The translations under genes and the position numbers were made by a program. Source: a phage. From it: a stretch of DNA of 64,000 nt. Within the stretch, counting starts at the first letter, position 1; each line of letters begins with the position of its first letter. Below, in pieces: positions 1,509 through 41,463 of this stretch. The notes below the pieces were generated by a model that searched no databases, had not been told where the DNA came from, and saw only the letters and a list, made by a program, of their open reading frames with translations. The stretch lies in sequence record PZ445523.1; one strand, given 5' to 3'.

Positions 1509-1695
1509 TATCTAAAATGTTGAAGTTAAAAGATACAGCCCAGTCAGTGCAGACCGTAACCTTTTTAATACAATTATCTTCAACCTCTAGTGGTTCAAAC
1601 CAGTATTCAATAATTTCTTTATGCCCAATATCATCTTTTACTTCGCATTCAAAATGCTGACTCATCATAACATTTTTAAATTCATCAAAAGTCAT
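1432..1695 (-). CDS. Hypothetical protein (87 aa)
   Basis: ATG overlaps gene 47 stop (ATGA coupling); same strand as flanking genes. Confidence 0.45.
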   Translation of the reverse strand: MTFDEFKNVMMSQHFECEVKDDIGHKEIIEYWFEPLEVEDNCIKKVTVCTDWAVSFNFNILDNDTPKSLRDMAISCIKDAYCEVFDI

Positions 1696-2711
1696 TGTGT
1701 TGCCTCTACATATAGCTGATTTGCATATTGAATAAGTGCTTCACGGTCAGAATCAGTGATGTCTGGAATTGCATTAATATACTCTTCCATTAATGTCTGA
1801 AGCGATTGAACTTCAACTTCTTCACTGTCATCTGACTCGACAGAGTTATCAATCTTTGACACAACTCGTAATGAATGCACAACTTTTTCTAGTTCAGATT
1901 CGAACTTCGTTAGATTTTTGTCTACTTCAGCTACTATAACACGTACTGATAGATTTGTAAAATCTTTATAGTCAATTTTTCCTTTAAATGGATAATGAAT
2001 TCTACGGTGCCAGGTAGTATTGTTTGGAATAAATTCCATTCGTTCTGTTTCTGTATCAAACATCCAGAACCCACGAGGGTCATTCTCGTCACCTGCAGTT
2101 AGTGTCCATGGTGTCCCAATATATCTGACGTTAGCAGCCTCAGAGATAGTATGGAAGTGACCAGACCACACCTCTTTATAAGTCTTAAGGAAATCAGGTT
2201 CAAGACCGTGAGATTTCATTCCTTTATAAAAATAAAATCCATTCAGCTCCCAGTGACCAACACAAAAAGAAGCAGATGAAGTTTTGATGTGCTCAAGAAT
2301 TTCACCAGTATTTTCTTCGCACATCCAAGGAATCAAATCAATCAAACATCCGTCAAAATCTACTGTAGTAGGCTTATCATATACTTTAACATTAGGATAT
2401 TTAGCCAAAAGCTCAGTAGAAGCATTTGGAGTTAAAGTATTTTTAAAGTGCATATCATGGTTTCCTACAACAGTATGTAGGGTAATACCAGCATCATCAA
2501 GCATTTGAACTATTTCACGAGCGAACTCCATAGTTTTATGCGTGATTGCTTTTCGCACATCAAAAATATCGCCGTATTGAATCCAGGTAGTAATTCCATT
2601 TTTCTTAGAATATTCTATCGCTTGCTTAATTCCATCCAACTGAATGGATTGAACCCACTCATCATCGGCTTTAACGCCTAAATGCCAATCACCTAAATTT
2701 AAAATTTTCAT
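1692..2711 (-). CDS. 47: Recombination endonuclease subunit gp47 (Mre11/SbcD-like nuclease)
   Basis: 339 aa; calcineurin-like phosphoesterase motifs (GDWH, GNHD, GHFH); length and sequence match T4 gp47. Confidence 0.92.
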   Translation of the reverse strand: MKILNLGDWHLGVKADDEWVQSIQLDGIKQAIEYSKKNGITTWIQYGDIFDVRKAITHKTMEFAREIVQMLDDAGITLHTVVGNHDMHFKNTLTPNASTELLAKYPNVKVYDKPTTVDFDGCLIDLIPWMCEENTGEILEHIKTSSASFCVGHWELNGFYFYKGMKSHGLEPDFLKTYKEVWSGHFHTISEAANVRYIGTPWTLTAGDENDPRGFWMFDTETERMEFIPNNTTWHRRIHYPFKGKIDYKDFTNLSVRVIVAEVDKNLTKFESELEKVVHSLRVVSKIDNSVESDDSEEVEVQSLQTLMEEYINAIPDITDSDREALIQYANQLYVEATQ

Positions 2712-2848
2712 ATATCAAGAACCGTCATTGAAATGCAAAATAAAATTATTGAAATAAATCCATCTGGAGTGCTAAAGAACCCAATCCAACATGCTCTAGT
2801 GAATAGATAAAATGCAAGAAAAAGTATCACATATCCAAGAAATATCAT
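2708..2848 (-). CDS. Small hydrophobic protein (about 46 aa)
   Basis: Hand-translated ORF MIFLGYVILFLAFYLF...; GGAG about 10 nt upstream; stop overlaps gene 47 ATG; below the ORF-track size cut-off. Confidence 0.35.
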   Translation of the reverse strand: MIFLGYVILFLAFYLFTRACWIGFFSTPDGFISIILFCISMTVLDI

Positions 2849-2873
2849 TATATCAAACTCCGTATAAAGCTAA

Positions 2874-2887
2874 AGGGCCGAAGCCCT
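2874..2887 (-). terminator. Stem-loop with UUCG tetraloop just after agt
   Basis: Minus-strand RNA GGGCUUCGGCCC immediately after the agt stop; weak U tract, so may be an RNA-stability hairpin rather than a strong terminator. Confidence 0.45.
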
Positions 2888-4090
2888 TTATTTTGTAATA
2901 ATGTCAAACTGTTCTTTAAAGCAGAAGCTTGAATCTTGATGCTGATACAAAAATTCATATGCTTTTTCACGTTCGCGGTCATAAAGAGCTCGGTCAGATG
3001 ACAGTTCTTTAATACGTTCAAATGTTGATTCCATGTCATTTTCATCAAACCAAATGATACCGCTATCATGCGAGGTCAAAGGAGTATTATCAACACGGAA
3101 TTTTAAATTTTCGCCAGTAGATTTCCAAAATACCGGAATTGTTCCACATGCACCAAGCTCGAGATGAGTATATTCTAAAGAACGTTGTAGATATTTTTTG
3201 TCCAACTTACTCAACTGATAACCAAATCCGGATTTACTCATGCGTTCAAGCATTTCGCTATTTACATAACGGTCAAGAATTTGCGTTGGCAAATTAGGAG
3301 CAATTTTAATTTGGTCTACTTGATGAAGACGATAATACTCGTATGGAATTCCTTTTTCTTTAATAGGAATGAACGCTGGAGAACGTTCCAGACCTTCCAT
3401 AATAGTACTTAGTCCTGCAGGTTTAAGATGTTTTTCATGAAAATCAAACATCTGATAAAAACCTTTCCATGTAGTCGTACGACCAATCCAACGGTTGATA
3501 TTCATGTTAATTTCAGAAACATCTTTCCAGTATGTTGATCGAACCTTTGCAATATCCATCGGAGGCTGAAAGTTATATACGGTCGGTGCTTCTTCAATAT
3601 CATCAAACAGAGAAACAGTTTCTGGATACCACTCTTTCATCAGAACTTTATTAAAATCACCATTATCAGAATGGCTAAAAATAATATCAGCTCGACGAAC
3701 AGTTTCTTCTAATCCCAAATTTCGACGCAAAGAAAGAGAAGAATGGTCATGCTGATAAACTACAACACGAACCGAAGGTTTAATGTTATCAATAATTTTT
3801 TTATAGTTATTAATAGTGTCTTCTTCAACTGAAGTAGCAGGAACTGAATTGATAATTAGAATATCACAATCATTTACCAGCTTAAGTGTTTTATCGTATT
3901 CTTTTGCCAATAAAACCGGAATTGAAAATGATTTATAATCATGTGCACAGTTACGAGTAAATGATTTATCTTTAGCATAAACCAAAGTTACTTCATGACC
4001 ATTTTTAATAAACCAATCACGCTGCTCGAGTGAGAATTTTGTTACACCACAACCTTCAAGACCTCGAGCCATAAAAATACATACTTTCAT
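2888..4090 (-). CDS. agt: DNA alpha-glucosyltransferase (glucosylates hydroxymethylcytosine)
   Basis: 400 aa; near full-length identity to recalled T4 alpha-gt (MRICIFMARGLEGCGVTKFSLEQRDWFIKNGHEV...). Confidence 0.95.
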   Translation of the reverse strand: MKVCIFMARGLEGCGVTKFSLEQRDWFIKNGHEVTLVYAKDKSFTRNCAHDYKSFSIPVLLAKEYDKTLKLVNDCDILIINSVPATSVEEDTINNYKKIIDNIKPSVRVVVYQHDHSSLSLRRNLGLEETVRRADIIFSHSDNGDFNKVLMKEWYPETVSLFDDIEEAPTVYNFQPPMDIAKVRSTYWKDVSEINMNINRWIGRTTTWKGFYQMFDFHEKHLKPAGLSTIMEGLERSPAFIPIKEKGIPYEYYRLHQVDQIKIAPNLPTQILDRYVNSEMLERMSKSGFGYQLSKLDKKYLQRSLEYTHLELGACGTIPVFWKSTGENLKFRVDNTPLTSHDSGIIWFDENDMESTFERIKELSSDRALYDREREKAYEFLYQHQDSSFCFKEQFDIITK

Positions 4091-4142
4091 TTAATATCCT
4101 CTTTGTTTTGGTTTATTTTACCAAAAATTTATAAAGCAATAT

Positions 4143-4158
4143 AGGAGCCGAAGCTCCT
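4143..4158 (-). terminator. Stem-loop with UUCG tetraloop
   Basis: Minus-strand GGAGCUUCGGCUCC hairpin in the intergenic region upstream of agt. Confidence 0.4.
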
Positions 4159-4333
4159 ATCCACATAATACGCCATACAGAGGCTCGTTAGAACTTTTAA
4201 ATTTTATGCGCTTATATGTTATAGTTCCTTCTGCTTTAGCTTTATCATGAGACTCTTTAAAGCGTCTCATCATTTCCTCTTTAGAGGAACGAATTTTATT
4301 ATAATCTATTTCAGAAGTCTGGGTGTTCATCTT

Positions 4334-30793: not shown

Positions 30794-31267
30794 TTATTTG
30801 AATGATTTAACGTACTGAATAGAACCTTTACTATTCACAAAGGCAATTTTACCATTTTTGTTATACATGGTAGCAGTACGCTGATAGCCATAAGTTTGTT
30901 TACCAGATTGATAACCAACTAATGCAAAATTATCTTCGCCCATTTTATTCTGCTTAGCGCGGATACGTTCATGACCGTGCGCCATAAGAACCTTAGCGTC
31001 GCCAGTTGCAATGGATCTACGAGTTTTTTCATCTTCAACTGTATTAACAAAGTCGTCAAATGAATCAAATTTAGCATGAGATTTATTATACAGTTTTCCA
31101 TCTACTGCATAATTATATCCCTGTACATCCATCTCAACTTCTGTACCATCATCCAATACAGCAGTGATTTTTTGACCTTTTTTAAATTTCAAAAGATCAG
31201 TAAAAGATTCAGCAATAATTTGAGAATTAATAGCTGCTTCAGTAATAAATTCTTGATATGTTTTCAT
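30794..31267 (-). CDS. Internal-protein-like capsid-targeted protein (157 aa)
   Basis: N-terminal capsid-targeting leader MKTYQEFITE followed by AA, as in T4 IPI/IPII/IPIII; payload unrecognised. Confidence 0.6.
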   Translation of the reverse strand: MKTYQEFITEAAINSQIIAESFTDLLKFKKGQKITAVLDDGTEVEMDVQGYNYAVDGKLYNKSHAKFDSFDDFVNTVEDEKTRRSIATGDAKVLMAHGHERIRAKQNKMGEDNFALVGYQSGKQTYGYQRTATMYNKNGKIAFVNSKGSIQYVKSFK

Positions 31268-31276
31268 ATGTTTCCT

Positions 31277-31693
31277 TTAAATGTAAATATTTTTACCGTA
31301 ATACTTGTACCAATGTGGTTTCATTAAAATTTTTTCATCAAGTCGTTGTTGACTCAATTTAATAGCTGATTTGCATGGATTATAATCATTTTTCCATTCT
31401 ACTGGAATATCGCTGATGTCAGGAACTTCAGTATCTTTTATACTGAACCCGCGTTTTAAGCATTCCGTTATAATGTCTGATTGACGCTTTCGCAAAAATT
31501 CTAACTTATCGTAAAAGAAAGTAACATGACCAGAACCTAAAATAAACTCGGAAGATATTTTAAAATCTTTAACCCGCTTACCATTTGCCACATGTTTACG
31601 AACTATACCAAAAACACGCGGCAATTCACGGTATTCTGCGATTAAATGTTGATCAGCAAGTTCAGATACTAAAGTCAAATTAATACGAGTCAT
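31277..31693 (-). CDS. denV: Endonuclease V (pyrimidine-dimer DNA glycosylase)
   Basis: 138 aa; about 75 percent identical to recalled T4 endo V ([17 protein letters not shown]..). Confidence 0.93.
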
Positions 31694-35926: not shown

Positions 35927-36058
35927 AGTTTTGTGAAAAAATTTTTAAAAAGTTTTAGGGAATTCTAGGGTCAGGAGGGGCAATTAAAAGGTAGGATAAT
36001 ATATTATAAAGGGTATAAACTAAATGATGCCTAGAGAGGCCCGGAAAGGCCTAGATAC

Positions 36059-36090
36059 CAAAAAGCCCCAACCTTTCGGTCGGGGCTAAG
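36059..36090 (-). terminator. Terminator hairpin; copy 1 of a 32-nt perfect direct repeat
   Basis: Minus-strand CUUAGCCCCGACCGAAAGGUUGGGGCUUUUUG; identical copy at 36595..36626. Confidence 0.6.
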
Positions 36091-36556: not shown

Positions 36557-36594
36557 TGTTATTTCCTGTGTTAATTAACTCATCTATTTATATC

Positions 36595-36626
36595 AAAAAG
36601 CCCCAACCTTTCGGTCGGGGCTAAGC
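36595..36626 (-). terminator. Terminator hairpin; copy 2 of the 32-nt perfect direct repeat
   Basis: Same 32 nt as 36059..36090; lies downstream of the tRNA/stable-RNA transcription unit. Confidence 0.6.
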
Positions 36627-37016: not shown

Positions 37017-37682
37017 TTAAAATTTCATTTTTCGACCTTTAAACCATCCTTCTGGAATTGGGTCAGTTTTCTTAATACGTTTAGAAACTTTTTCATCTAA
37101 TGAATGAATCCACATCATACCAAATTGGGAATTCTTTTCACCTTTCTGGTGATTATTTTTAGCGTGAATTTCTTTCATTTTATTAATAGTTTCAAGAGTA
37201 TGATGCTTATTTAAAAATCTGCTATTATTTAAAAATTTTTCTTTGTATTCAGGAGTTGACCATAAACGTTTAAATACATTTGAACCATTTTTACGATATT
37301 TTTCTTGAAGTAAAATATCATTTTCAAAACGTGACTTAAACGATTTAGCTCCTTTTAAGCTAGCATCTTTCTTCTGGTTTAGCATTCCAGGAATATTTAC
37401 ATGATCCCATCCGCCTTCACCGCCAAGTTTTAAATTATACACATCTGGTCTATTTAAAAACTCTTCTGTGACAATATTTTTCTCGGCTTCAAGCATAGAT
37501 TCTTTATCATCAAAATACTCTAATATTTCTTTAGAAAAATTTTCTATACCATATTTATCTTGGGCTCTTTTTAATAATTTACCAGAACCCATATATCCAT
37601 CATCTAAATTTTCGGTAGAATGCACACCAATATAAATTTTATTATTAATTTTATTTGTTATTTTATAAGTGTAATAGAACAT
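37017..37682 (-). CDS. segB: GIY-YIG homing endonuclease SegB
   Basis: 221 aa; GIY-YIG motifs (YTYKITN...IYIGVHS...YMGSG); sits inside the tRNA cluster as in T4. Confidence 0.85.
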   Translation of the reverse strand: MFYYTYKITNKINNKIYIGVHSTENLDDGYMGSGKLLKRAQDKYGIENFSKEILEYFDDKESMLEAEKNIVTEEFLNRPDVYNLKLGGEGGWDHVNIPGMLNQKKDASLKGAKSFKSRFENDILLQEKYRKNGSNVFKRLWSTPEYKEKFLNNSRFLNKHHTLETINKMKEIHAKNNHQKGEKNSQFGMMWIHSLDEKVSKRIKKTDPIPEGWFKGRKMKF

Positions 37683-37723
37683 AAATATCTCCTATTTCTA
37701 AGAGTATTTATGTTCTCAAAATA

Positions 37724-37797
37724 TGACCCAGACCAGATTTGAACTGGTAACCTTTCCCTTATGAGGGGACTGCTGCTAACCATTGAGCTACAGGGCC
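37724..37797 (-). tRNA. tRNA-Ile (anticodon CAU) or tRNA-Met
   Basis: Cloverleaf with T-arm ACCAG-TTCAAAT-CTGGT and anticodon loop CUCAUAA; T4 encodes an AUA-reading tRNA-Ile here; one acceptor mismatch in my fold. Confidence 0.6.
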
Positions 37798-37798
37798 T

Positions 37799-37874
37799 TG
37801 GTGCTGATTGACGGAATCGAACCGCCGACCTTCTCATTACAAGTGAGTTGCTCTACCTACTGAGCTAAATCAGC
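37799..37874 (-). tRNA. tRNA-Thr (anticodon UGU)
   Basis: Acceptor GCUGAUU/AAUCAGC, anticodon loop CUUGUAA, T-arm GGTTCGATTCC, encoded CCA. Confidence 0.8.
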
Positions 37875-37876
37875 AA

Positions 37877-37963
37877 CGGAGGCGATAGGATTTGAACCTA
37901 TGAGTCGCCGGAGCGACTGCCGGTTTTCAAGACCGGTGCATTAAACCACTCTGCCACGCCTCC
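37877..37963 (-). tRNA. tRNA-Ser (anticodon UGA)
   Basis: Type II tRNA with long variable arm; acceptor GGAGGCG/CGCCUCC, anticodon loop CUUGAAA. Confidence 0.8.
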
Positions 37964-37965
37964 AG

Positions 37966-38039
37966 TCTCCGTGGCAGGATTTGAACCTACGACATTCTGC
38001 TCCCAAAGCAGACGCTCTACCAAACTGAGCTACACGGAG
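37966..38039 (-). tRNA. tRNA-Pro (anticodon UGG)
   Basis: Acceptor CUCCGUG/CACGGAG, anticodon loop UUUGGGA, T-arm GGTTCAAATCC. Confidence 0.8.
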
Positions 38040-38049
38040 TAAATTAAAT

Positions 38050-38123
<74 letters not shown>

Positions 38124-38128
38124 AAATT

Positions 38129-38215
38129 TGGTACGAGAAGTGGGACTCGAACCCACAAGGAAATCATTCCGCAGCATTTTAAGTGCTGTGCCTTTACCAA
38201 TTTGGCCATTCTCGC
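38129..38215 (-). tRNA. tRNA-Leu (anticodon UAA)
   Basis: Type II tRNA; acceptor GCGAGAA/UUCUCGU, anticodon loop CUUAAAA, encoded CCA. Confidence 0.8.
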
Positions 38216-38216
38216 G

Positions 38217-38289
38217 CTGGGAATAAAGGACTCGAACCTTTGCATCTAGCAGTCAAAGTGCTATGCCTTACCAACTTGGCTAATTCCCA
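38217..38289 (-). tRNA. tRNA-Gln (anticodon UUG)
   Basis: Acceptor UGGGAAU/AUUCCCA, anticodon loop CUUUGAC; abuts tRNA-Leu. Confidence 0.8.
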
Positions 38290-38386
38290 ATTATTAACAA
38301 AGGCTCTCAAACAAGAACCCTTGATGATAGAGGGTATTAATCAGTGCGGTATGAGTTAATAATAACAAATAATTCTTAAAGCATAT

Positions 38387-38674
38387 TTACCATTTATGAT
38401 AATACGTATTTACGATACATTCAAGACCCAAAGGATTCTTGAAAATATCATATTCAAGAGGACCTTTTTCTGTTTCAATAAAGAAATCAAAATTTACTGT
38501 ATTAAATTTACGGTCTTCCTTCACTAATTTAACTTGAGAAGATGAACGGTCAATGTAAACCTTTTCAACTTCAAAACATGTTAAAATTCCATAATCATCA
38601 ATCAAGGCTTTAGCAGCGTCTTGATCATATTTATATCCATTTTCAATGGACGATACTTTCGCATAAAGAATCAT
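38387..38674 (-). CDS. Hypothetical protein (95 aa)
   Basis: First ORF upstream of the tRNA cluster on the early strand. Confidence 0.5.
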   Translation of the reverse strand: MILYAKVSSIENGYKYDQDAAKALIDDYGILTCFEVEKVYIDRSSSQVKLVKEDRKFNTVNFDFFIETEKGPLEYDIFKNPLGLECIVNTYYHKW

Positions 38675-38676
38675 TA

Positions 38677-39087
38677 TCAGCCTCTATCAACGATAGTATG
38701 AGTATGGGCATTTACGATTTGCCACCAGTCGAAACGATTGGAACCATAATCTGGTTTATTTTCATTTTCTTTAATGATATCACGCAGTTTATCTTCTGTT
38801 TCAGCATACGCAATTAAATCATCATATCCACCACAAGGATAATAATTATCACCTGCGAATAAAAGAAAATTTACCTTAGATGGATTTACGTAATAATGGT
38901 CTTTAGGATATTTAGTTCCTCTCCAATCAGTTACTTCAACATAACGATAAGAAAATCCATTTTTACTTTCAATCCAACTCCACGCTTCAAAAGGAGTATT
39001 AAAAACTTTATCAGGTATTAAATTACCTTCAAAATGAGAAGGATTTGCATAATCCCCGGCATAAACATAATATTCGTTAATACTCAT
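38677..39087 (-). CDS. Hypothetical protein (136 aa)
   Basis: ORF on the early strand; aromatic-rich. Confidence 0.5.
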   Translation of the reverse strand: MSINEYYVYAGDYANPSHFEGNLIPDKVFNTPFEAWSWIESKNGFSYRYVEVTDWRGTKYPKDHYYVNPSKVNFLLFAGDNYYPCGGYDDLIAYAETEDKLRDIIKENENKPDYGSNRFDWWQIVNAHTHTIVDRG

Positions 39088-39273
39088 TTATTCACCTTTA
39101 GAAATTTTATCCATAACGATAGCGATTAAACCAATTAAAAATGCTACTACAAGTGAAAACACATTTTCTGCTGTAGTCAGTAATCCGCATATAAATCCAA
39201 CAAACATTGAAAAACTAAAAGCGGAAGCAGAAATTGCAATAGCAACATTTCGAATTAATTCACAGCGTTTCAT
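39088..39273 (-). CDS. Small membrane protein (61 aa)
   Basis: Two hydrophobic helices; downstream of an early promoter. Confidence 0.5.
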   Translation of the reverse strand: MKRCELIRNVAIAISASAFSFSMFVGFICGLLTTAENVFSLVVAFLIGLIAIVMDKISKGE

Positions 39274-39300
39274 TTTATTCTCCTCAGTAGTTGATAGGGT

Positions 39301-39331
39301 AATAATATCACCACCCTATCTAAAAGTAAAC
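39301..39331 (-). promoter_or_regulatory. Early promoter
   Basis: Minus-strand GTTTAC, spacer, TATTAT-like -10; then GAGGAG and ATG. Confidence 0.45.
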
Positions 39332-39341
39332 GGTTTATAAA

Positions 39342-39650
39342 CTATTTTATTCCGCGTGATGCAATTGTGTTCTGTCGTTTAACGCCAGTTTGTTTAAAGT
39401 CATGATTGTCGATTTGATCGGTACGAGCAACTCCGAATGATGATTTGATCTTAGCTTTAGATCCTTTAGTTATAGAAATAAACATCTCGGAAGCCCCTTT
39501 CTTAAAGTCCGAGGCGATTACTTCAACGCCGTTCTTAGCAAGTGACTTCAGAATTGCCTCCGCATACTCATCGTCAAGACTCGCCTGAGTATTAATAACG
39601 AATGTCTTTGGTGCAGCAGCTTCATTGATAAATTCTTTAAATGTTTTCAT
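39342..39650 (-). CDS. Internal-protein-like capsid-targeted protein (102 aa)
   Basis: Leader MKTFKEFINE followed by AAA; own copy of the duplicated promoter/leader module. Confidence 0.6.
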   Translation of the reverse strand: MKTFKEFINEAAAPKTFVINTQASLDDEYAEAILKSLAKNGVEVIASDFKKGASEMFISITKGSKAKIKSSFGVARTDQIDNHDFKQTGVKRQNTIASRGIK

Positions 39651-39679
39651 TTTATTTTCCTAATTAATTTTGATAGGGT

Positions 39680-39711
39680 AATAGTATCACTACTAAAACC
39701 CTGTGTAAACA
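39680..39711 (-). promoter_or_regulatory. Early promoter (module copy A)
   Basis: Minus-strand GTTTACA, 17-nt spacer, TACTAT; near-identical to the copy at 40010..40041. Confidence 0.5.
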
Positions 39712-39722
39712 ACTTTGTGAAA

Positions 39723-39980
39723 TTATTTTAAATCTTCTAATCGTTTCTTCATCTTAGAACCGTTCTTAGCGATTTCGCCTGCATCAGAGCATAATGCTAA
39801 AAGCGCTTTAACTTTAGTTTGGTCTCCTTTAAAAGATGAAGGATCAACAGCAGCAGCAAGTTCTTTAATACGAGAGAAAAGACGCTCAGCTTCAGCTAAA
39901 GCCATTCCAAGCTTTACTTCCATACCATGAGAAGATTCAGTAATAGTAGTTTTTGTAGCAAACTCTTTGAAAGTTTTCAT
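39723..39980 (-). CDS. Internal-protein-like capsid-targeted protein (85 aa)
   Basis: Leader MKTFKEFATKTTITE; occupies the T4 ipI position next to 57B, but the payload differs from recalled IPI. Confidence 0.55.
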   Translation of the reverse strand: MKTFKEFATKTTITESSHGMEVKLGMALAEAERLFSRIKELAAAVDPSSFKGDQTKVKALLALCSDAGEIAKNGSKMKKRLEDLK

Positions 39981-40009
39981 TTTATTTTCCTAATTAATTT
40001 TGATGAGGT

Positions 40010-40041
40010 AATAGTATCACTACCTCATCAGTATGTAAACA
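40010..40041 (-). promoter_or_regulatory. Early promoter (module copy B)
   Basis: Same architecture and flanking sequence as 39680..39711. Confidence 0.5.
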
Positions 40042-40052
40042 ACTTTGTGAAA

Positions 40053-40737
<685 letters not shown>

Positions 40738-40738
<1 letters not shown>

Positions 40739-41463
40739 TATAGTACCTTTAGTGTATTTTTAATTTTAGAAAAAAGTTCTTCAAGAGAACCATCGTTTGT
40801 AATTACTAAATCGCCATCACGAATTGGCAATCCAGCTTCTGTAATATGTGTATCATTGGATTTTTGACCAGGACGAACTACATGAATTACTGTAGCACCC
40901 ATCGCCCTAGCCGCATCCATTTCATGATCTTGACGAGTATCAGGAACGATATAATAATCATAACCTGTGTTAAATTTATCAAGATAATCTAAAGCAAATA
41001 ATTTTACCCAGTACATGCGGTCGAAGTTATTAACAATCAAATCCGTACCTAGGGCTTGCATCAGACGACGGACTGACCATTGATCTTCAATATTATTTAT
41101 AACGTCAATAATCTTGTTAAATGCTACGGAATTAACTGATTCTTGTCCTTCGTCATCAAAAACAAACACACCTTTAATTGGGCTTTTACCATTAAGATAG
41201 CAAAATGCTTGTTCCATAATCGTGATTACTTCTAATTTAGTCAGATTTAAATTAGTCTCACGATCATAGTCAATTCCTTCAAACTCTTTACGAGTTAAGC
41301 AAGGATAGTCGGTATTTGCTGCAAATACCCCCCATGCATAAACCAATGCATCCTTAATAGGACCAGCAAGTTGGTATTTAACTGCAGAATAATTGCTCAT
41401 GATAAAATCAGCAGTAGTATCTTTTCCACTACGCTTTACACCGCTTAAAAAGATTAGTTTCAT
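40738..41463 (-). CDS. 1: Deoxynucleoside monophosphate kinase gp1
   Basis: 241 aa from MKLIFLSGVKRSGKDT (P-loop); matches T4 gp1; ORF-track extension rejected. Confidence 0.92.

What the first reader, a model, noticed from the sequence alone, without database searches (positions are those of the whole stretch)
39342..40052. Tandem duplicated promoter-plus-leader module carrying two different payloads
The roughly 60-nt segments upstream of the two IP-like genes (about 39661..39722 and 39991..40052) are nearly identical: the same A/T-rich block, GTTTACA -35, TACTAT -10 and leader, and both ORFs start MKTFKEF. The downstream coding sequences are unrelated. This suggests modular exchange of payloads behind a fixed expression and packaging signal.
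Basis: seen in the sequence. Interest (0 to 1): 0.6.

Follow-up and report, generated by a model that had tools for sequence, protein, structure and literature searches.

The report
Repeated promoter-leader modules flanking T-even internal-protein genes
This is the well-known variable "internal protein" locus of a T4-like phage, where unrelated injected-protein genes (here Ip5 and Ip7) each sit behind the same early promoter, hairpin, leader and capsid-targeting peptide. It is real and tidy, but it was described in 1994.

Summary
A weaker third copy lies before the next gene, tRNA.4.

The window is a Tequatrovirus (T4-like phage). The two ORFs are Ip5 (85 aa) and Ip7 (102 aa), in the ipI locus between 57B and tRNA.4, arranged as in phage T2.

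Each module contains:
- the previous gene's stop codon;
- an A/T-rich block;
- a GTTTACA -35 element;
- a hairpin whose loop and 3' arm hold the TG-extended -10 element (TACTAT);
- the leader and ribosome-binding site;
- the first seven codons, MKTFKEF, of the capsid-targeting peptide.

The similarity far exceeds the generic early-promoter consensus. Ip5 and Ip7 share nothing beyond those seven residues.

Across ten related phages the locus holds one to four cassettes in different combinations. The left half of each junction tracks the upstream gene and the right half tracks the downstream gene. They join at an invariant -10 core. Recombining the window's own modules at that core reproduces a natural junction.

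However, it is already published (Repoila 1994; Arbiol 2010). Interest is low.

The parts
40053..40511 (-). Gene 57B (152 aa), the conserved left anchor of the locus. Its last three codons plus stop (D-L-K-stop) are part of the repeat.
   Evidence: ORF; Pfam Acb1 E = 7e-60; annotated 57B in RB32, T4 and T2.
39960..40068 (-). Module copy B (57B|Ip5 junction): stop codon, A/T-rich block, -35, hairpin with -10, leader, ribosome-binding site and first 7 codons.
   Evidence: Repeat family D1; alignments.
40011..40040 (-). Early-type promoter of copy B: GTTTACA (40040-40034), 17-nt spacer, TG-extended TACTAT (40016-40011).
   Evidence: Promoter scan; pattern search.
40001..40030 (-). Hairpin of copy B: 13 pairs, loop AUAC. 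The -10 hexamer spans the loop and the top of the 3' arm.
   Evidence: RNA fold -17.4 kcal/mol, z = -5.3.
39723..39980 (-). Ip5 internal head protein gene (85 aa). The targeting propeptide is MKTFKEFATKTTITE (39980-39936), ending in the I-x-E protease motif.
   Evidence: PHROG 3499, E = 1e-49; annotated Ip5 in RB32, RB14, T2 and RB15; N-termini.
39630..39738 (-). Module copy A (Ip5|Ip7 junction), same layout as copy B.
   Evidence: Repeat family D1.
39681..39710 (-). Early-type promoter of copy A: GTTTACA (39710-39704), 17-nt spacer, TG-extended TACTAT (39686-39681).
39675..39702 (-). Hairpin of copy A: interrupted 5+5 pairs, weaker. The 5' arm is the type linked to the Ip5 3' flank.
   Evidence: RNA fold -12.9 kcal/mol, z = -2.9; arm types.
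39342..39650 (-). Ip7 internal head protein gene (102 aa). The targeting propeptide is MKTFKEFINE (39650-39621), ending in I-x-E.
   Evidence: PHROG 2667, E = 2e-41; annotated Ip7 in RB32, P922, T2 and RB15.
39274..39341 (-). Third, more diverged module (Ip7|tRNA.4 junction): GTTTACT (39331-39325), TATTAT (39307-39302), hairpin 39293-39320, GGAG-type leader. It is not followed by a targeting peptide.
   Evidence: RNA fold -16.0 kcal/mol, z = -3.7.
39088..39273 (-). tRNA.4 (61-aa predicted membrane protein), the conserved right anchor of the locus.
   Evidence: ORF; PHROG 1692; annotated tRNA.4 in T4, RB32 and others.

Best explanation
This is the hyperplastic ipI locus of a T-even (Tequatrovirus) phage, carrying two internal-protein gene cassettes, Ip5 and Ip7, as in phage T2. 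Each cassette sits behind a copy of a composite intergenic module. The module has four parts. (1) A T4-type early promoter (A/T-rich block, GTTTACA, 17 nt, TG-n-TACTAT) drives transcription soon after infection. (2) A hairpin has its 5' arm in the promoter spacer, and its loop and 3' arm carry the -10 element. (3) A conserved leader carries the ribosome-binding site. (4) The first codons encode the capsid-targeting sequence MKT(F/Y)(K/Q)EF, followed by an I-x-E site for the prohead protease gp21. The targeting peptide loads whatever follows it into the prohead core. The protease then removes it, and the mature protein is injected with the DNA. By analogy with Ip1, Ip2 and Ip3, the injected protein probably disarms a host defence. 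Because the module is repeated at every gene boundary, it provides 14-32 nt of exact homology. The phage's efficient homologous recombination can use this to delete, insert or swap cassettes, with crossovers mostly in the invariant -10 core or in the leader and targeting-peptide block. Shown here: the repeat, its excess over the promoter consensus, unrelated payloads, cassette polymorphism among relatives, linkage of half-modules to their neighbours, and reconstruction of a natural junction. Taken from the literature: the targeting and cleavage functions, early transcription of T4 ipI, and recombination at short homologies. Inferred: promoter activity in this phage, packaging and anti-defence roles of Ip5 and Ip7, and any role for the hairpin.
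For: Identity of the locus: the 801-nt block matches T2 ip7-ip5-57B in one piece at 97.4%, and the genes are annotated Ip5 and Ip7 in RB32, T2, RB15 and P922. Repeat: (109 nt, 88%). Beyond the promoter consensus: (leader 90% identical, versus at most 48% to other sites). Promoters. Hairpins. Payloads unrelated; the predicted folds differ (Ip5 helical hairpin, pLDDT 71; Ip7 alpha/beta, pLDDT 67). Cassette polymorphism: one to four cassettes in ten loci. Mosaic junctions: in 31 aligned junctions the left half is 96% identical when the upstream gene is the same and 55% otherwise. The core is 97-98% identical in all. The right half is 97% identical when the downstream gene is the same and 77% otherwise. 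Reconstruction: window Ip5|Ip7 left half + core + window Ip7|tRNA.4 right half matches the real Shfl2 Ip5|tRNA.4 junction at 118/121 positions, versus 83% and 79% for the unrecombined junctions. Exchange inside the targeting peptide: Ip7 and Ip6 each occur with both MKTFKEF and MKTYQEF. All IPs have I-x-E at residue 10, 15 or 19, matching the published 10-19-residue propeptides and the L/I-x-E rule (PMC9026906). T4 ipI is 'early RNA, late protein' while 57B upstream is 'middle RNA' (PMC9697503 supplement), which fits a start site inside the module. T4 recombines at very short homologies (PMC9391042; PMC2839356). Ip1, Ip2 and Ip3 each inhibit a distinct GmrSD nuclease (PMC12373910).
Against: No experiment on this phage is available. 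The promoters are consensus matches only. The ten loci are closely related, so the permutation p-values overstate independence. Hairpin conservation is not universal: the Ip9|Ip7 junctions fold at only -2.5 to -4.4 kcal/mol. Covariation is weak: 2 compensatory pairs, and 10 of 500 shuffles reach the observed score. No T-run follows the stems and no terminator-like site is called, so a terminator role is unsupported here. The functions of Ip5 and Ip7 are unknown. Fold searches gave only generic matches.
Confidence: 0.88

Rival explanations
1. The resemblance is only the generic T4 early-promoter consensus seen twice, with no special relationship between the two intergenic regions.
For: Other early promoters in the window share ACAAAGTTGTTTACA and a GTGnTAnnAT-type -10 element. 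Upstream identity to some of them reaches 71%.
Against: The 48 nt after the core are 90% identical between the two modules, versus at most 48% to any of 11 other sites. There is a 32-nt exact run through the leader into the coding sequence. The repeat even includes the last three codons of the upstream gene.
Confidence: 0.02
2. Ip5 and Ip7 are old tandem paralogues whose coding regions diverged beyond recognition, while selection kept the regulatory and targeting sequences. On this view the repeat reflects duplication plus purifying selection, not exchange.
For: The genes are in tandem and share an N-terminus. Tandem duplication does occur at this locus: phage CM8 carries 57B-Ip5-IpI-(57B fragment)-Ip5-IpI-Ip8. 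The shared D-L-K-stop end of 57B and Ip5 looks like a duplication scar.
Against: No profile-level similarity exists beyond 7 residues and the predicted folds differ. Cassettes are present or absent as discrete units among phages that are about 96% identical in the flanks. Half-modules re-assort with their neighbours. Targeting-peptide variants swap within one payload family. Ip5-like payloads occur at a different locus in RB69-like phages.
Confidence: 0.06
3. The cassettes move by a dedicated route rather than by general homologous recombination. The hairpin would be recognised by a structure- or sequence-specific protein, and cassettes would excise as mini-circles, as shown for PeSL elements in RB49 and phi1.
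For: Breakpoints map to the hairpin loop and -10 core, the same place as the RB49 mini-circle crossover. The hairpin is kept in most junctions. Arm changes GATGAGG/CCTCATC versus GATAGGG/CCCTATC are compensatory.
Against: The core is also the longest invariant stretch shared by all junction types, so ordinary homologous recombination predicts the same breakpoints. Crossovers also occur in the leader and targeting peptide. Covariation is weak. No recombinase is implicated. Arbiol et al. themselves leave this open.
Confidence: 0.1
4. The main role of the hairpin is at the RNA level. It would act as a terminator or attenuator, or as a 3'-end stabiliser, insulating each cassette from read-through, as proposed for PeSL stem-loops. 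On this view it is not a recombination feature.
For: The hairpins are stable as RNA (-12.9 to -17.4 kcal/mol). C-to-T changes in the 3' arm keep G-U pairing. In T4, 57B RNA is 'middle' and ipI RNA 'early', implying separate transcription units. A PeSL stem-loop terminated transcription in a reporter assay.
Against: No T-run follows any stem and no terminator-like site is found. Some natural junctions lack a stable hairpin. Transcripts starting at the module's own promoter contain only the 3' arm.
Confidence: 0.3

Closest known systems
Variable internal-protein (IP) loci of T-even phages (Repoila, Tetart, Bouet and Krisch 1994, EMBO J 13:4181; sequences such as Z35082 for RB15 ip5-ip9-ip7-ip8)
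   Same: Same locus (between 57B and tRNA.4). Same gene families (Ip5 and Ip7, 97.4% identical to T2 at the DNA level). Same repeated promoter plus stem-loop junctions and the same conserved N-terminal targeting peptide.
   Different: Nothing of substance. This phage combines a T2-type Ip5-Ip7 block with tRNA.3-containing flanks that T2 lacks, a minor new mosaic. I could not read the 1994 paper itself. Its content is taken from later papers that cite it.
PeSL (promoter-early stem-loop) cassettes of RB49, phi1, PST and nt-1 (Arbiol et al. 2010, PMC2839356; Comeau et al. 2014, PMC4122927)
   Same: Same layout: upstream stop codon in an A/T-rich block, -35, a stem-loop between -35 and -10 or overlapping -10, ribosome-binding site, start codon. 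The elements flank small variable genes. Crossovers map to the stem-loop.
   Different: The -35 element is the T4-type GTTTAC rather than the sigma-70 consensus. The stems are A/T-rich without poly-G/poly-C. The authors call the IP elements analogues, not homologues, of PeSLs. Here the repeat also extends into the coding sequence (the targeting peptide). Terminator activity and mini-circles are untested.
Capsid targeting sequence (CTS) of T4 IPI, IPII and IPIII, with gp21 processing
   Same: The N-terminus is MKT(F/Y)(K/Q)EF followed by I-x-E at residue 10 (Ip7) or 15 (Ip5). This matches the 10-19-residue propeptides and the L/I-x-E cleavage rule.
   Different: Targeting and cleavage of Ip5 and Ip7 themselves have not been shown here.
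Integron gene cassettes
   Same: An array of unrelated small adaptive genes, each bounded by a repeated recombination-prone element. Cassette number and order vary between close relatives.
   Different: There is no integrase and no attC/attI sites. Each cassette has its own promoter. Exchange is most simply explained by general homologous recombination. This is a functional analogy only.

Membership tests
T-even internal-protein gene cassette at the ipI locus | Located between gene 57B and tRNA.4, upstream of the tRNA cluster | tested here: met
   Gene order 1-57A-57B-Ip5-Ip7-tRNA.4-tRNA.3-tRNA.2-tRNAs, collinear with T4, T2, RB32 and others.
T-even internal-protein gene cassette at the ipI locus | Sequence membership in a named IP family | tested here: met
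   The 85-aa ORF is 100% identical to Ip5 of RB15 and RB32. The 102-aa ORF matches Ip7 (PHROG 2667, E = 2e-41; 94-95% identical to named Ip7 proteins).
T-even internal-protein gene cassette at the ipI locus | N-terminal capsid-targeting sequence followed by an L/I-x-E gp21 site | tested here: met
   MKTFKEFINE|A in Ip7 and MKTFKEFATKTTITE|S in Ip5. The rule is from PMC9026906.
T-even internal-protein gene cassette at the ipI locus | Protein is packaged in the head, processed and injected | not testable with these tools
   Needs virion mass spectrometry or N-terminal sequencing.
T4-type early promoter | A/T-rich upstream block, GTTTAC(A/T) -35 element, 17-nt spacer, TG-extended TAnnnT -10 element | tested here: met
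   Three sites called with TG before the -10. They fit the pattern shared by 13 sites in the window.
T4-type early promoter | Early transcription starts at the site | not testable with these tools
   Indirect support only: T4 ipI RNA is classed early while 57B RNA is classed middle (PMC9697503 supplement).
PeSL (Arbiol et al. 2010) | Intergenic early promoter combined with a stem-loop placed between -35 and -10 or overlapping -10 | tested here: met
   Hairpins 40001-40030, 39675-39702 and 39293-39320 overlap the spacer and the -10 element. The layout matches the description.
PeSL (Arbiol et al. 2010) | Sigma-70 consensus promoter and G/C-rich (poly-G/poly-C) stem; homologous to the RB49/phi1 elements | tested here: not met
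   The -35 element is GTTTAC and the stems are GATGAGGTA/TACCTCATC-type. The authors state the IP elements are analogues, not homologues.
PeSL (Arbiol et al. 2010) | Indel and replacement breakpoints between related phages fall within the element | tested here: met
   Half-module linkage and the invariant core; the reconstructed junction matches at 118/121.
PeSL (Arbiol et al. 2010) | The stem-loop terminates transcription; cassettes form mini-circles | not testable with these tools
   No T-run and no terminator-like site. A reporter assay and inverse PCR are needed.
Intrinsic (rho-independent) terminator | G/C-rich stem followed by a T-run | tested here: not met
   No terminator-like sites in 38300-40800. 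The stems are followed by CAAAATTAATT or CAACTACTG.

The most novel reading that the evidence does not exclude
The IP cassettes may be more than passive products of homologous recombination. They could form an integron-like mobile system. In that case the hairpin whose loop is the -10 core would be a specific recombination site, bound or cut by a phage factor. Cassettes would excise as circles and re-insert at any copy of the module. That would let co-infecting T-even phages rapidly trade injected anti-defence proteins.
Probability: 0.1. Interest if true: 0.55.

Novelty: already known. Interest (0 to 1): 0.15.

Why it matters
The locus is a textbook case of how a virulent phage keeps a small, swappable arsenal of injected proteins. 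One promoter-leader-targeting module makes any downstream ORF an early-transcribed, capsid-loaded, injected protein. The same module supplies the homology for swapping payloads. This has practical uses. The targeting peptide is already used to load foreign proteins into T4 heads. The payload families here, Ip5 and Ip7, have no known target, and the three T4 IPs each block a different GmrSD restriction nuclease (PMC12373910). As a discovery the finding adds nothing new. The element class, the locus and these gene families have been in the literature and in GenBank since 1994.

Tried and rejected
- Rfam scan of 37600-40800 at E <= 1: only the seven tRNAs and sub-threshold noise, nothing on the modules.
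- Terminator scan: none.
- Late-promoter motif TATAAATA: 12 sites in the window, as expected by chance. None lies in the module or leader regions of Ip5 or Ip7; the nearest are 38628 and 41094.
- Covariation test of the 13-pair hairpin on 21 distinct junctions: inconclusive. There are 2 compensatory pairs, and 10 of 500 shuffles reach the observed score. Junctions after Ip5, IpI and Ip8 use a different register.
- Remote homology between Ip5 and Ip7: none beyond 7 residues.
- PDB sequence search: nothing.
- Foldseek on moderate-confidence models: only generic ACT/ferredoxin-like hits (Ip7) or helical-hairpin hits (Ip5), and no match to IPI*. No function is assigned.
- Pfam: no family for Ip5, Ip7, tRNA.2, tRNA.3 or tRNA.4.
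- Papers not held, so their content is cited only second-hand or from my own knowledge: Repoila 1994 (PMC395341), Rifat 2008 (PMC2255585) and Miller 2003 (PMC150520).
- T4 GenBank records NC_000866 and AF158101 carry no promoter features at these junctions.
- My first promoter regex used the wrong spacer length and missed the sites. It was corrected.

Full report
**What is there**

The window comes from a T4-like phage (Tequatrovirus). Megablast of 38300-40600 hits 725 phage records, mostly Escherichia and Shigella T-even phages. The genes here lie on the minus strand, in this order:
- gene 1
- 57A
- 57B (40053-40511)
- an 85-aa ORF (39723-39980)
- a 102-aa ORF (39342-39650)
- tRNA.4 (39088-39273)
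- tRNA.3 and tRNA.2
- seven tRNA genes

This order rests. The 85-aa ORF is Ip5 and the 102-aa ORF is Ip7. These are "internal head proteins", annotated under those names in RB32, RB14, T2, P922 and the 1994 RB15 entry Z35082. The 801-nt block 39300-40100 matches phage T2 (ip7-ip5-57B) in one piece at 97.4%. T2 lacks tRNA.3, which this phage has. The window is therefore a small new mosaic of known parts.

**Checking the observation**

- It covers 39630-39738 and 39960-40068: 109 nt, 88% identical, 330 nt apart.
- In gene orientation it starts with the last three codons and stop of the upstream gene. Both 57B and Ip5 end D-L-K-stop.
- It then runs through an A/T-rich block, GTTTACA, a variable 11-13 nt, an invariant TAGTGATACTATTACC, a short variable 3' arm, and a leader with AGGA. 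It ends seven codons into the next gene, MKTFKEF.
- The longest exact shared run is 32 nt and crosses the start codon.
- A third, more diverged copy precedes tRNA.4. It has a different leader and no MKTFKEF.
- The promoter scan calls all three sites as TTTAC(A/T) - 17 nt - TA(C/T)TAT with TG before the -10.

It is not. Compared with 11 other early-promoter-like sites in the window:
- the 48 nt after the core are 90% identical between the two modules, against at most 48% to any other site;
- the 38 nt up to the -35 element are 89% identical, against at most 71%;
- only the spacer (46%) is at background level.

**The payloads**

Ip5 and Ip7 belong to different PHROG families and have no Pfam match. 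BLASTP aligns them weakly (E = 0.003), driven by the N-terminus. Profile-profile comparison aligns seven residues only. AlphaFold models of moderate confidence give a two-helix hairpin for Ip5 (pLDDT 71) and a beta-alpha-beta-beta-alpha fold for Ip7 (pLDDT 67). Foldseek finds only generic matches. "Unrelated payloads" therefore holds as far as these tools can see.

Both proteins, and every other IP in the ten compared loci, begin MKT(F/Y)(K/Q)EF. All have I-x-E at residue 10, 15 or 19. This matches the published capsid-targeting sequence: 10-19-residue propeptides, of which the first ten residues of IPIII are sufficient for targeting. It also matches the L/I-x-E cleavage rule of the prohead protease gp21 (PMC9026906).

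**Comparison with relatives**

The interval between 57B and tRNA.4 holds different cassette sets in different phages:

| Phage | Cassettes |
|---|---|
| T4 | IpI |
| Shfl2 | Ip5 |
| window, T2 | Ip5-Ip7 |
| PST, T6 | Ip5-Ip6 |
| RB14 | Ip5-IpI |
| P922 | IpI-Ip7 |
| RB32 | Ip5-Ip9-Ip7 |
| UFV-AREG1 | IpI-Ip9-Ip7-Ip8 |

I aligned all 31 junctions from these loci.
- The left half (stop codon to the 5' hairpin arm) follows the upstream gene: 96% identity when that gene is the same, 55% otherwise.
- The 12-nt core GTGATA(C/T)TATTA is 97-98% identical throughout.
- The right half (3' arm, leader, ribosome-binding site) follows the downstream gene: 97% versus 77%.

The loci are closely related, so the permutation p-values overstate independence. 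The pattern is nonetheless plain in the alignment.

Each cassette therefore runs from one -10 core to the next. As a direct test, I joined the window's Ip5|Ip7 left half to its Ip7|tRNA.4 right half at the core. The product matches the natural Shfl2 Ip5|tRNA.4 junction at 118 of 121 positions. The unrecombined junctions match it at 83% and 79%.

Exchange also occurs further downstream. Ip7 and Ip6 each occur with either MKTFKEF or MKTYQEF in different phages. The leader before Ip9 and Ip8 is the one normally found before tRNA.4. This corresponds to the "43 bp direct repeat" noted in the RB32 GenBank record.

**The hairpin**

As RNA, the three window copies fold at -17.4, -12.9 and -16.0 kcal/mol (z = -5.3, -2.9, -3.7). 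The 5' arm lies in the promoter spacer. The -10 hexamer spans the loop and the top of the 3' arm. Most natural junctions keep a hairpin, but Ip9|Ip7 junctions do not (-2.5 to -4.4 kcal/mol). Two pairs show compensatory changes (GATGAGG/CCTCATC versus GATAGGG/CCCTATC), but the covariation test is weak overall. No T-run follows the stems and no terminator-like site is called. The role of the hairpin remains open: attenuator, RNA-end stabiliser, recombination site, or none.

**How it most likely works**

The module makes the downstream ORF an early-transcribed gene whose product carries a capsid-targeting peptide. In T4, ipI RNA is classed early and its protein late. The upstream gene 57B is classed middle RNA, and trna.4 early (PMC9697503 supplement). 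That fits an independent start site in the module. The protein is loaded into the prohead core, trimmed by gp21 and injected with the DNA. T4 Ip1, Ip2 and Ip3 each block a different GmrSD type IV restriction nuclease (PMC12373910). An anti-defence role for Ip5 and Ip7 is a reasonable inference but is untested.

The repeated modules give 14-32 nt of exact homology. That is ample for T4 recombination, which has been shown to work at 2-10 bp and is said to need under 50 bp (PMC9391042; PMC2839356).

The promoter is a property of the locus, not of the payload. The window's second IP gene (30794-31267, DUF7412) follows denV directly. It has the peptide MKTYQEFITE and no promoter module. Ip5-like genes (48% identity) in RB69-like phages sit next to the endolysin gene e. 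In phage HMD-9 (checked) the start codon overlaps the stop of e.

**Comparison with what is known**

This is the system described by Repoila et al. in 1994. Arbiol et al. 2010 write that Repoila et al. [quoted passage not shown] They add that these elements are based on T4 early promoters with weaker, A/T-rich stem-loops, and are analogues rather than homologues of PeSLs. Comeau et al. 2014 repeat this. The layout here matches the commonest PeSL subclass, in which the stem-loop lies between -35 and -10 or overlaps -10. It lacks the sigma-70 consensus and the G/C-rich stems. I could not read the 1994 paper itself.

The module is widespread: 910 phage records and 2430 places.

**Verdict**

The residual novel possibility is a dedicated, hairpin-directed cassette mobility with circular intermediates. 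The evidence neither supports nor excludes it, and I put it at about 10%.

Noticed in passing
window 40053-40511 (-): Gene 57B, annotated 'RNA ligase' or 'hypothetical' in many records, matches Pfam Acb1 (anti-CBASS protein) at E = 7e-60. An anti-defence gene therefore sits immediately upstream of the injected-protein cassettes.
   Followed up: partly
L011 (Shigella phage CM8, MK962750.1) 1584-4262: The CM8 ipI locus carries a tandem segmental duplication: 57B - Ip5 - IpI - 246-nt 57B 3' fragment - Ip5 - IpI - Ip8 - tRNA.4. Its 57B|Ip5 module is 100% identical to the window's. This could be a real amplification through module or 57B homology, or an assembly artefact.
   Followed up: no
window 30794-31267 (-): A second IP locus: a 157-aa internal virion protein (Pfam DUF7412, PHROG 3155) with targeting peptide MKTYQEFITE. 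It lies directly after denV (31280-31693, Pyr_excise) and has only a ribosome-binding site, with no promoter or hairpin module.
   Followed up: partly
L013 (phage HMD-9, PV287714.1) 1501-1782: An Ip5-like payload (48% identical, with its own targeting peptide MKTYSEFLSE) lies at the other IP locus, with its start codon overlapping the stop of endolysin gene e. About 228 records carry this distant form. The Ip5 payload family is thus found at both IP loci across genera.
   Followed up: partly
window 39274-39300 and junction alignment: Three leader types are used at the locus. AAAATTAATTAGGAAAAT precedes Ip5, Ip7 and IpI. AACTACTGAGGAGAAT precedes tRNA.4, Ip9 and Ip8. A longer AAAACAAAATCAAATGGAAATC precedes Ip6. 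The second type contains GGAG, which from my own knowledge is the motif cut by the T4 RegB endoribonuclease. Cassettes may therefore differ in mRNA stability.
   Followed up: no
window 36055-36090 and 36590-36625: Two 36-nt copies (97% identical, 535 nt apart) of a G/C-rich hairpin plus T-run on the minus strand (CTTAGCCCCGACCGAAAGGTTGGGGCTTTTT). They look like a repeated intrinsic terminator downstream of the tRNA region.
   Followed up: no
window 37017-37682 (-): A 221-aa GIY-YIG endonuclease ORF (Pfam GIY-YIG, E = 2e-6) sits immediately downstream of the seven-tRNA block (37724-38289) on the minus strand. It is in the position of the homing endonuclease SegB in T4.
   Followed up: partly
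window 38300-40600 versus phage database: No database record matches this 2.3-kb stretch in a single piece. The phage combines a T2-type Ip5-Ip7 block with tRNA.2-tRNA.3-tRNA.4 flanks of the T4/RB14 type. It is therefore a cassette combination not seen among the listed genomes.
   Followed up: partly
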